Source of the DNA: Escherichia phage PSK1
Sequence record: PP541512.1
DNA: 39,615 nt
Reading direction: 5' to 3' (one strand)
A program made the position numbers and the translations under genes. Below the pieces are notes generated by a model. The model did not search any database, had not been told where the DNA came from, and worked only from the letters and a program-made list of their open reading frames with translations. This document shows positions 21,897-22,353 of the stretch, in pieces (the first letter of the stretch is position 1; each line of letters starts with the position of its first letter).

Positions 21897-22127
21897 ATGT
21901 CAATGAAACTTGTAACACACAACAGGACATACAACGATGGGTCGGGACGTTGCCATGTAGAGCTGACTTATAGGGATTTAGTCATTCTCCGAGACAGATT
22001 ACAAGCGGGTGTGACTGGGTGGATTCAACCTAACGAGTACAACCTTATAGCTTCGATTGATGAAGTTCTTAACGCGTGGATGGAAGACGAGCGCATTCAG
22101 TATCCGTCATTCCCTCTAATTAGATAA
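21897..22127 (+). CDS. Hypothetical protein (76 aa) directly downstream of the RNAP gene
   Basis: AGGAGGAG RBS; no phage promoter between it and gene 1, so presumably co-transcribed. Confidence 0.5.
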   Translation: MSMKLVTHNRTYNDGSGRCHVELTYRDLVILRDRLQAGVTGWIQPNEYNLIASIDEVLNAWMEDERIQYPSFPLIR

Positions 22128-22137
22128 GGAGAGAGTT

Positions 22138-22353
22138 ATGAAATTTGCACACAAGCATACTGGCGTTAATGGTGGGACTCAAATCGTGACCGTAACAGAA
22201 CACAACGGCAAGGGTCTGGTGAAGACCACGGTCATCCCTACCGAGATGTCCAAGCAGCTTAACGTCCCATTCAAGACCCTCGTCTATCTTGTGGAATCCA
22301 GCCACGAGAAATACCTGAAAGACGCAGTGACCAAGCTGGAGCAGACCAAATGA
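22138..22353 (+). CDS. Hypothetical protein (71 aa)
   Basis: AAGGAGAGAG RBS; lysine-rich; no similarity recognised. Confidence 0.5.
   Translation: MKFAHKHTGVNGGTQIVTVTEHNGKGLVKTTVIPTEMSKQLNVPFKTLVYLVESSHEKYLKDAVTKLEQTK

What the first reader, a model, noticed from the sequence alone, without database searches (positions are those of the whole stretch)
21897..22353. Two unassigned small genes co-transcribed with the RNA polymerase gene
ORFs of 76 and 71 aa with good RBSs follow gene 1 directly with no intervening phage promoter; the first promoter downstream of the polymerase gene is at 22431. Their products would appear with the polymerase. Neither resembles T7 gp1.1 or gp1.2, which are found further downstream.
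Basis: partly seen in the sequence, partly recalled or inferred. Interest (0 to 1): 0.5.

Follow-up and report, generated by a model that had tools for sequence, protein, structure and literature searches.

The report
Two small genes behind phage RNAP
Two real but functionally uncharacterised small protein genes sit on the same messenger RNA as the RNA polymerase gene of a K1F-like (Kayfunavirus) coliphage; both are already catalogued as hypothetical proteins, one being a genus-wide core gene and the other an optional inserted cassette.

Summary
ORF A (21897-22127, 76 aa) and ORF B (22138-22353, 71 aa) follow gene 1 directly and have strong Shine-Dalgarno sites. No phage promoter, terminator or processing hairpin lies before the promoter at 22430. 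That promoter is followed by a homologue of the T7 R1.1 RNase III site, so gene 1, A and B should form one processed mRNA. Both ORFs are under purifying selection.

The window is a Kayfunavirus, and both genes are already in public records. ORF B is the gene named "gp1.1" in K1F, EcoDS1 and Dev2 (phrog_8082). That name is positional: ORF B has no similarity to T7 gp1.1, whose real homologue is at 22542-22721. ORF B is present in about 220 phages and is always the first gene after gene 1. ORF A is EcoDS1's "unknown product" ORF (phrog_28104). It occurs in only 39 phages, is compositionally foreign, and is flanked by microhomology, so it looks like an inserted cassette.

Neither matches Pfam, NCBIfam, PADLOC or PDB sequences. 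ORF B folds confidently (pLDDT 94) into a three-stranded sheet plus helix with no diagnostic structural neighbour. Its divergence is decoupled from RNAP divergence, which argues against a polymerase cofactor. The best guess is early host-directed effectors; this is inferred, not shown. Interest is low to moderate.

The parts
19109..19126 (+). Phage RNAP promoter directly upstream of gene 1 (CTTAACTATCACTATAGG)
   Evidence: 1 mismatch to the consensus. It is conserved at the same place in K1F and EcoDS1 and is annotated as a promoter in EcoDS1.
19200..21881 (+). Gene 1, single-subunit RNA polymerase (893 aa)
   Evidence: It corresponds to the annotated RNAP genes of K1F and EcoDS1.
21883..21890 (+). 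Shine-Dalgarno site of ORF A (AGGAGGAG)
   Evidence: A GGAG core is conserved in all ORF A-bearing loci, including the 46%-identity allele in L012.
21897..22127 (+). ORF A: 76 aa, acidic (pI 5.5); accessory cassette gene of family phrog_28104, equivalent to EcoDS1 AS9_0007 'unknown product'
   Evidence: Purifying selection. GC3 0.455 and low codon adaptation. Present in 39 phage records only. AF2 pLDDT 67, with a beta-hairpin plus two helices.
22126..22131 (+). Shine-Dalgarno site of ORF B (AAGGAG), overlapping the ORF A stop codon
22138..22353 (+). ORF B: 71 aa, basic (pI 9.5, 10 Lys and no Arg); core Kayfunavirus gene of family phrog_8082, equivalent to K1F/EcoDS1/Dev2 'gp1.1' (a positional name)
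   Evidence: It is always the first gene after gene 1. dN/dS 0.03-0.35. AF2 pLDDT 93.9, with a beta-meander plus a long helix.
22430..22447 (+). First phage promoter downstream of gene 1 (phi1.1A equivalent), +1 at about 22446
   Evidence: exact consensus match. An equivalent promoter is annotated in EcoDS1 and ASO2B.
22446..22495 (+). Hairpin homologous to the T7 R1.1 RNase III processing site; predicted 3' boundary of the gene 1-A-B mRNA
   Evidence: Direct sequence similarity to T7 5850-5900 (ACTCAAGGTCAT...GTGGCCTTYATGATT). Same stem / internal loop / stem fold, z = -3.2. No Rfam model matches.
22542..22721 (+). True T7 gp1.1 homologue (59 aa; called 'gp1.15' in K1F and Dev2)
   Evidence: E 3e-5 against T7 gp1.1; phrog_4383.
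22724..23011 (+). gp1.2-type dGTPase inhibitor homologue (95 aa)
   Evidence: phrog_2949, E 2.4e-27.
24085..24124 (+). TE-like intrinsic terminator after the ligase gene; end of the early (host-RNAP) transcription unit
   Evidence: 13-bp stem plus T-run. The position matches the TE annotated in EcoDS1 and T7.

Best explanation
Shown:
- ORF A and ORF B are genuine protein-coding genes of a Kayfunavirus (the K1F/EcoDS1 group).
- They lie between the gene 1 stop codon and the phi1.1A-promoter / R1.1 RNase III-site equivalent. In T7 that interval is only about 25 nt.
- They therefore ride on the gene 1 mRNA as a tricistronic gene 1-A-B message, each with its own strong SD.
- ORF B is a lineage-wide core gene, fixed as the first gene after gene 1, native in composition, and folded as a compact three-stranded beta-meander plus a C-terminal helix.
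- ORF A is an optional cassette. It is compositionally foreign, bounded by TAA-(C)AGGAG microhomology, and present in about one sixth of the lineage.

Inferred from T7:
- The message would be made early by host RNAP, within the early unit that ends at TE.
- It would also be made by the phage RNAP from the promoter just upstream of gene 1.

Inferred function:
- Both most likely act as small early effectors that bind host components, for host takeover or counter-defence. This is what most small T7 early proteins do (Ocr, gp0.4, gp0.6, gp1.2, gp2, gp5.5, gp5.7).
- They are less likely to be cofactors of the phage polymerase.
- The target and the mechanism are unknown.
For: Coding and expression signals:
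- ORFs and conserved SDs.
- purifying selection in the annotated frame only.
- codon usage.
- pLDDT 93.9 for ORF B.

Transcript architecture:
- no promoter between 19126 and 22430.
- no terminator or structure at the junctions.
- R1.1 homologue after ORF B.
- TE-like terminator at 24085.
- the promoter upstream of gene 1 is conserved.

Identity:
- phrog_28104 (E 3.5e-53) and phrog_8082 (E 6.7e-42), both full length.
- K1F, EcoDS1 and Dev2 annotations.

Core gene versus cassette:
- 39 records with ORF A, about 220 with ORF B, and about 220 genomes with this gene 1 type.
- slot lengths of roughly 300, 550, 770 and 1020 nt, and the microhomology.
- ORF A GC3 0.455 against 0.60-0.65 in neighbours.

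Host-directed rather than RNAP-directed:
- ORF B identity 45-97% while RNAP stays 89-94% identical, r = 0.11.
- ORF A exists as a 46%-identical allele in an otherwise roughly 90%-identical backbone.
- homologues occur only on phage-sized contigs, with none in cellular genomes.
- no enzymatic or known domain.
Against: - No direct functional evidence exists. No paper in the searchable library addresses these genes.
- Translation was not observed.
- Allelic replacement and presence/absence polymorphism are typical of host-interaction genes, but they also occur for neutral or selfish phage ORFs.
- The strictly conserved position of ORF B next to gene 1 could reflect a functional tie to the polymerase that a conserved interface would not reveal in whole-protein identity.
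- Host-RNAP early transcription is inferred from T7. The early promoters were not mapped here; the sigma-70 scan is at chance level.
Confidence: 0.45

Rival explanations
1. ORF B, possibly with ORF A, is an accessory factor of the phage single-subunit RNA polymerase. It would be co-translated from the gene 1 mRNA and would modulate RNAP folding, promoter use or activity. One possibility is a brake on the positive feedback created by the phage promoter upstream of gene 1.
For: - ORF B is the first gene after gene 1 in every locus examined.
- It is present in essentially all genomes with this gene 1 type.
- It shares the same processed mRNA.
- A phage promoter directly upstream of gene 1 is conserved in this lineage and is not annotated there in T7.
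Against: - ORF B divergence is decoupled from RNAP divergence. Phage F and MopsHU1 have 91-94% identical RNAP but only 44-45% identical ORF B.
- ORF A is optional.
- T7-type RNAPs work without protein cofactors, and their known modulator is lysozyme gp3.5 (established knowledge).
- A structural look-alike in phage ECBP5 lies after the helicase gene, not the RNAP gene.
Confidence: 0.12
2. ORF B is a small nucleic-acid-binding protein with an AP2 / integrase-N-terminal-like three-stranded sheet plus helix. It would act on phage or host DNA or RNA, for example at the adjacent replication-origin / promoter region or on the gene 1 mRNA.
For: - ORF B is basic, with pI 9.5.
- In T7 the region just downstream of gene 1 is the primary replication origin (established knowledge).
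Against: - There is no Arg at all in the protein.
- There is no Pfam, NCBIfam or PDB sequence match.
Confidence: 0.12
3. ORF A is a ribbon-helix-helix-type small repressor or antitoxin-like DNA binder carried on a mobile cassette.
For: - The predicted order of strand, helix, helix (E19-21, H25-36, H45-68) superficially resembles an RHH.
- ORF A has a cassette-like distribution and foreign composition.
Against: - The model is of low confidence (pLDDT 67).
- No RHH family is hit in Pfam even at E up to 1.
- The inter-helix loop is about 6 residues longer than in canonical RHH proteins, and the protein is acidic.
- No partner toxin gene lies adjacent.
Confidence: 0.05
4. One or both ORFs are non-functional chance reading frames or decaying remnants.
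For: - ORFs of 70-120 aa occur by chance on both strands of this window.
- ORF A has weak codon adaptation.
- One close pair, window against EcoDS1, shows more non-synonymous than synonymous change, though on very few sites.
Against: - Length, start codon and SD are conserved across alleles that are 46% (ORF A) and 44% (ORF B) identical.
- pN is well below pS in frame only.
- ORF B has a pLDDT-94 fold.
- Hundreds of intact copies exist.
Confidence: 0.02

Closest known systems
K1F 'gp1.1' / EcoDS1 AS9_0008 'gp1.1' / Cronobacter phage Dev2 'gp1.1' (PHROG 8082)
   Same: ORF B is this gene. It is 94% identical to the K1F protein and 92% to the EcoDS1 protein. It has the same length class and the same position as the first gene after gene 1.
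   Different: There is nothing substantive. The window's allele is the 71-aa E. coli type, while other clades have 66-aa alleles at about 80% and about 45% identity. The family has no known function.
EcoDS1 AS9_0007 'unknown product' (PHROG 28104)
   Same: ORF A is this gene. It is 87% identical to the EcoDS1 protein, has the same 76-aa length, and sits in the same position between gene 1 and ORF B.
   Different: It is absent from K1F itself and from about five sixths of the lineage. A 46%-identity allele exists in one IMG/VR genome.
T7 gp1.1 (42-aa basic protein, gene 1.1)
   Same: In T7, gene 1.1 is the first gene after gene 1. ORF B shares only that first-gene-after-gene-1 position, and this explains the name it was given in K1F. 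Both are small and basic.
   Different: There is no sequence similarity. The real homologue is the next gene downstream, at 22542-22721. T7 gene 1.1 lies after phi1.1A/B and R1.1, whereas ORF B lies before their equivalents.
T7 class I early host-directed small proteins (Ocr gp0.3, gp0.4, gp0.6, gp1.2)
   Same: These are small proteins in the early transcription unit upstream of TE. They are frequently variable or dispensable and act by binding host proteins (established knowledge). ORF A and ORF B share the location, size and variability.
   Different: ORF A and ORF B show no sequence or diagnostic fold similarity to any known family. No host target is known for them.

Membership tests
PHROG 8082 / K1F-type 'gp1.1' family (ORF B) | Full-length profile match and high identity to named members | tested here: met
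   phrog_8082 at E 6.7e-42, covering profile positions 1-66 of 66. ORF B is 94% identical to K1F YP_338095 / gp1.1.
PHROG 8082 / K1F-type 'gp1.1' family (ORF B) | Synteny: first gene downstream of gene 1 and upstream of the phi1.1-type promoter | tested here: met
   This holds in all 26 related loci and in LET1.
PHROG 28104 / EcoDS1 AS9_0007 family (ORF A) | Full-length profile match and the same position between gene 1 and ORF B | tested here: met
   phrog_28104 at E 3.5e-53, covering positions 1-76 of 76. The position is the same in EcoDS1, ASO2B, L012 and L013.
T7 gp1.1 | Sequence similarity to T7 gp1.1, including the KGRKLNKTKR basic motif | tested here: not met
   ORF B gives no BLASTP alignment at E up to 100. 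ORF A has no such motif. The ORF at 22542-22721 does match (E 3e-5).
T7 gp1.2 dGTPase inhibitor (PHROG 2949) | Profile match to the gp1.2 family | tested here: not met
   Neither ORF A nor ORF B hits phrog_2949 at E up to 1. The ORF at 22724-23011 does (E 2.4e-27).
T7-type early (class I) genes | Located upstream of the early terminator TE and transcribed by host RNAP from the left-end promoters | tested here: inconclusive
   A TE-like terminator lies at 24085-24114, downstream of both ORFs, with none in between. The host early promoters were not identified with confidence, because the sigma-70 scan is at chance level. Timing is not testable with these tools.
T7 R1.1 RNase III processing site (3' boundary of the gene 1 mRNA) | Sequence and hairpin homology to T7 R1.1, located after phi1.1A | tested here: met
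   Shared ACTCAAGGTCAT...GTGGCCTTYATGATT and the same stem / internal loop / stem structure. Cleavage itself is not testable here.
Ribbon-helix-helix DNA-binding proteins (considered for ORF A) | RHH sequence profile match, or structural match to the RHH fold | tested here: not met
AP2 / integrase-N-terminal beta3-alpha DNA-binding domains (considered for ORF B) | Three-stranded sheet plus helix with basic (Arg-rich) sheet residues; profile or strong structural match | tested here: inconclusive

The most novel reading that the evidence does not exclude
ORF B is a lineage-specific partner of the single-subunit phage RNA polymerase. It would be produced from the same mRNA and would tune the polymerase, for example by restraining the positive feedback created by the phage promoter directly upstream of gene 1. 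That would be a new kind of regulator for T7-type RNAPs, and a potential tool for the K1F RNAP used in synthetic biology.
Probability: 0.1. Interest if true: 0.6.

Novelty: already known. Interest (0 to 1): 0.25.

Why it matters
As it stands, this is an annotation clarification.
- The genes exist and are catalogued but have no known function.
- The 'gp1.1' label that ORF B homologues carry in K1F, EcoDS1 and Dev2 is misleading. The true T7 gp1.1 homologue is the next gene downstream, which is called gp1.15 in K1F and Dev2.
- The hairpin annotated as a terminator in one record is the R1.1 RNase III site.

There are three points of practical interest.
- ORF B is a universally conserved, confidently folded, 7.9-kDa early protein specific to Kayfunaviruses. 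These include therapeutic candidates such as K1F, LM33_P1 and CLB_P1. It is a clean target for a deletion and pull-down experiment.
- ORF A is naturally present or absent among near-identical phages, which gives a ready-made comparison for host-range or anti-defence phenotypes.
- If either protein bound the K1F-type RNAP, it would matter for synthetic-biology uses of that polymerase.

Tried and rejected
Family and sequence searches:
- Pfam, NCBIfam and PADLOC scans of both proteins gave no hits at E up to 1.
- PDB sequence-profile searches gave only chance-level hits, with E of 0.3 or more.
- An Rfam scan of 18900-24300 found nothing.

Structure searches:
- The BFVD search found only uncharacterised viral proteins.
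- The AFDB50 library was unavailable.

Wider homology searches:
- The exhaustive HMMER search with the ORF B profile found 12 representative clusters. The three long hits are Ig-like repeat proteins (Big_2, cadherin, SLH) and were rejected as compositional artefacts.
- Searches for ORF A relatives in metagenome and genome collections found only phage contigs, plus one spurious 12-residue match in a Dormibacteraeota MAG.

Literature:
- Searches for functional data on K1F gp1.1 or Kayfunavirus early genes found only genome-description tables.
- The K1F genome paper is not held.
- JSS1_004 was checked and is a gp0.7 homologue, so it is unrelated.

Other ideas rejected:
- Antisense ORF 22120-22389 was rejected as a shadow of ORF B. 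All genes in this phage group are on one strand, and selection fits the + frame.
- Positive selection on ORF A, suggested by window versus EcoDS1 dN/dS of 3.1, rests on too few substitutions to claim.

Full report
**1. What is in the sequence**

The window is a circularly permuted, complete genome of about 39.6 kb from a T7-group phage of the genus Kayfunavirus (the K1F/EcoDS1 group). The 21800-22560 stretch matches 215 deposited phage records at 80-99% identity, mostly Escherichia and Salmonella Kayfunaviruses.

Gene 1, the single-subunit RNA polymerase of 893 aa, occupies 19200-21881. Their Shine-Dalgarno sites are AGGAGG/GGAG and AAGGAG, each about 6 nt from the ATG. These sites are conserved in every related locus, including highly divergent alleles.

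**2. Transcription context**

An 18-nt phage promoter consensus finds 11 sites in the window against 0.01 expected by chance. None lies between 19126 and 22430.

Three facts were not in the finding:
- A phage promoter sits immediately upstream of gene 1, at 19109-19126. It is conserved in K1F and EcoDS1.
- The hairpin right after the 22430 promoter is a clear homologue of the T7 R1.1 RNase III site. It shares ACTCAAGGTCAT...GTGGCCTTYATGATT and the same stem / internal loop / stem fold, with z = -3.2. One GenBank record annotates it as a terminator.
- The only good intrinsic terminator is the TE equivalent after the ligase gene, at 24085-24114.

The gene 1/A and A/B junctions are unstructured, and Rfam finds nothing in the region. 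In T7, only about 25 nt separate the gene 1 stop from phi1.1A. In this lineage that interval has been expanded to hold ORF A and ORF B.

The predicted processed message is therefore a tricistronic gene 1-A-B mRNA. By analogy with T7 it would be made by host RNAP as part of the early unit. It would also be made by the phage RNAP from the upstream promoter. Co-transcription with gene 1 is real. It is not by itself a sign of a polymerase-related function, because the whole block up to TE is one early unit.

**3. Are they real genes?**

ORF length alone means little here, since many chance ORFs of this size occur on both strands. The evidence is comparative.

ORF A:
- One IMG/VR genome (L012) carries a second allele that is only 46% identical. 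It has the same length, position and SD.
- Against that allele, pN is 0.35 and pS 0.89 in frame, while shifted frames give pN/pS of 1 or more.
- Most close pairs give dN/dS of 0.06-0.32.

ORF B:
- dN/dS is mostly 0.03-0.35 across 26 loci.
- Codon usage and GC3 match the neighbouring genes.
- AlphaFold2 gives a pLDDT-93.9 model with three antiparallel strands, a short helix and a long C-terminal helix.

**4. Identity**

Both proteins hit PHROG families of unknown function over their full length. ORF A matches phrog_28104 (E 3.5e-53) and ORF B matches phrog_8082 (E 6.7e-42).

ORF B:
- It is the gene annotated 'gp1.1' in K1F (94% identical), EcoDS1 and Cronobacter phage Dev2.
- That name is positional. 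ORF B has no detectable similarity to T7 gp1.1.
- The true T7 gp1.1 homologue is at 22542-22721 (E 3e-5, KGRKLNKTKR motif). It is called gp1.15 in K1F and Dev2.
- The gp1.2-type dGTPase inhibitor is at 22724-23011.

Its refutation clause ('known conserved T7-group genes') is nevertheless met in the sense that both ORFs are already catalogued.

ORF A is EcoDS1's 'unknown product' AS9_0007 (87% identical).

**5. Distribution and evolution**

ORF B:
- It occurs in 220 deposited phages. About 218-222 phages carry this type of gene 1, so ORF B is essentially universal in the lineage.
- It is always the first gene after gene 1, including in the Pectobacterium phage LET1.
- An exhaustive HMMER search of 1.84 billion representative proteins found only about 9 small-protein clusters. 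Three long hits were spurious Ig-repeat proteins.
- All homologues are on phage-sized contigs.
- Three allele groups exist: a 71-aa E. coli type, a 66-aa type at about 80-85% identity, and a 66-aa type at about 45% identity.
- ORF B identity is uncorrelated with RNAP identity (r = 0.11). Phage F has a 93.5% identical RNAP C-terminal half but a 45% identical ORF B.

ORF A:
- It occurs in only 39 records, all E. coli-type Kayfunaviruses, and is absent from K1F.
- It has no relatives elsewhere.
- It is compositionally foreign, with GC3 0.455 against 0.60-0.65 and a codon adaptation index of 0.57 against about 0.70.
- It is bounded by TAA-(C)AGGAG microhomology, so that A-minus genomes read as a clean excision.

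The slot between gene 1 and the promoter comes in four sizes:
- about 300 nt, holding ORF B only;
- about 550 nt, holding A and B;
- about 770 nt, holding B plus a 156-aa gp1.05/1.06-type gene (phrog_8103, function unknown);
- about 1020 nt, holding all three.

The slot is therefore an accessory-gene hotspot anchored by a core gene.

**6. Function**

No Pfam, NCBIfam, PADLOC or PDB-sequence match exists for either protein.

- ORF B is basic (pI 9.5) but has 10 Lys and no Arg. ORF A is acidic (pI 5.5).
- No paper in the searchable library reports a function.

My committed reading rests on the following:
- their position in the early unit;
- their small size and lack of any enzymatic domain;
- their restriction to phages;
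- allelic replacement decoupled from the backbone;
- the presence/absence polymorphism of ORF A.

On that basis I read both as early host-directed effectors for takeover or counter-defence, like most small T7 early proteins. I do not read them as polymerase cofactors. This step is inference, and I put it at about 0.45. The rivals are an RNAP-associated regulator (about 0.12), a nucleic-acid binder (about 0.12), an RHH-type ORF A (about 0.05) and non-genes (about 0.02). The rest of the probability is unassigned.

**7. Verdict**

The anatomy is right, the genes are unassigned only in function, and no evidence links them to the polymerase beyond co-transcription.
- Novelty: already known, as catalogued hypothetical genes. 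The useful outputs are three annotation points. The 'gp1.1' name for ORF B is a misnomer. The hairpin annotated as a terminator in MZ726794 is the R1.1 RNase III site. ORF A is an inserted cassette, whereas ORF B is a core gene of the genus.
- Interest is low to moderate (0.25). The most novel reading still open is that ORF B regulates the phage RNAP. I give that about 10% probability.

Noticed in passing
window 19109-19126: A phage-RNAP promoter lies directly upstream of gene 1. It is conserved in K1F (L005:2479) and EcoDS1 (L001:814), and no such promoter is annotated upstream of gene 1 in T7. This implies positive autoregulation of the polymerase gene in Kayfunaviruses.
   Followed up: partly
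window 22446-22495; L002 2158-2194 (MZ726794): The hairpin after the phi1.1A-type promoter is the homologue of the T7 R1.1 RNase III site. In the ASO2B record it is annotated as a rho-independent terminator, although it has no T-run.
   Followed up: yes
L001 (EcoDS1) 3839-4054 and 4692-4871; window 22138-22353 and 22542-22721: EcoDS1 carries two CDS that are both named gp1.1. Only the downstream one resembles T7 gp1.1. K1F and Dev2 call the downstream one gp1.15. The naming is inconsistent across the genus.
   Followed up: yes
window 22724-23011; L001 4875-5126; L012 3537-3764: The gene 1.2 position holds very different proteins in closely related phages: 95 aa (phrog_2949 type) here, 83 aa in EcoDS1, and 75 aa in L012. 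This is allelic replacement at the dGTPase-inhibitor / PifA-target locus, in line with gp1.2 allele effects noted in the BASEL paper (PMC11990801).
   Followed up: no
L001 4133-4603 (EcoDS1 gp1.05); L012 2795-3265; L007 1780-2247: An optional 156-aa gene (phrog_8103, function unknown, with a coiled-coil-like N-terminus) occupies the same slot between ORF B and the promoter in many relatives. It is absent from this window.
   Followed up: partly
L003 (OR594182.1, UNVERIFIED): The feature table of this record is shifted relative to its sequence. 'Nucleotide kinase' and 'RNA polymerase inhibitor' labels fall over the ORF A / ORF B region.
   Followed up: no
PV615262.1 (hits H38, H78, H95, H193): 'Acinetobacter phage vB_Aba_01KA' is about 91-94% identical to E. 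coli Kayfunaviruses across gene 1, ORF A and ORF B. The host attribution looks doubtful.
   Followed up: no
window 21897-22127 vs L001 3598-3828: ORF A differs from the EcoDS1 allele by about 11 non-synonymous and about 1 synonymous change (dN/dS 3.1). The variable residues 7 and 10-12 lie in the low-confidence N-terminal tail. There are too few sites to claim positive selection.
   Followed up: partly
L033 (ECBP5) 8966-9145: BFVD lists a 59-aa uncharacterised ECBP5 protein (Gajwadongvirus) with an ORF B-like fold (TM 0.83, 17% identity). By length it is most likely ECBP5_0016, which lies in the replication module after the helicase gene. It may be a remote relative of the ORF B family outside Studiervirinae.
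   Followed up: partly
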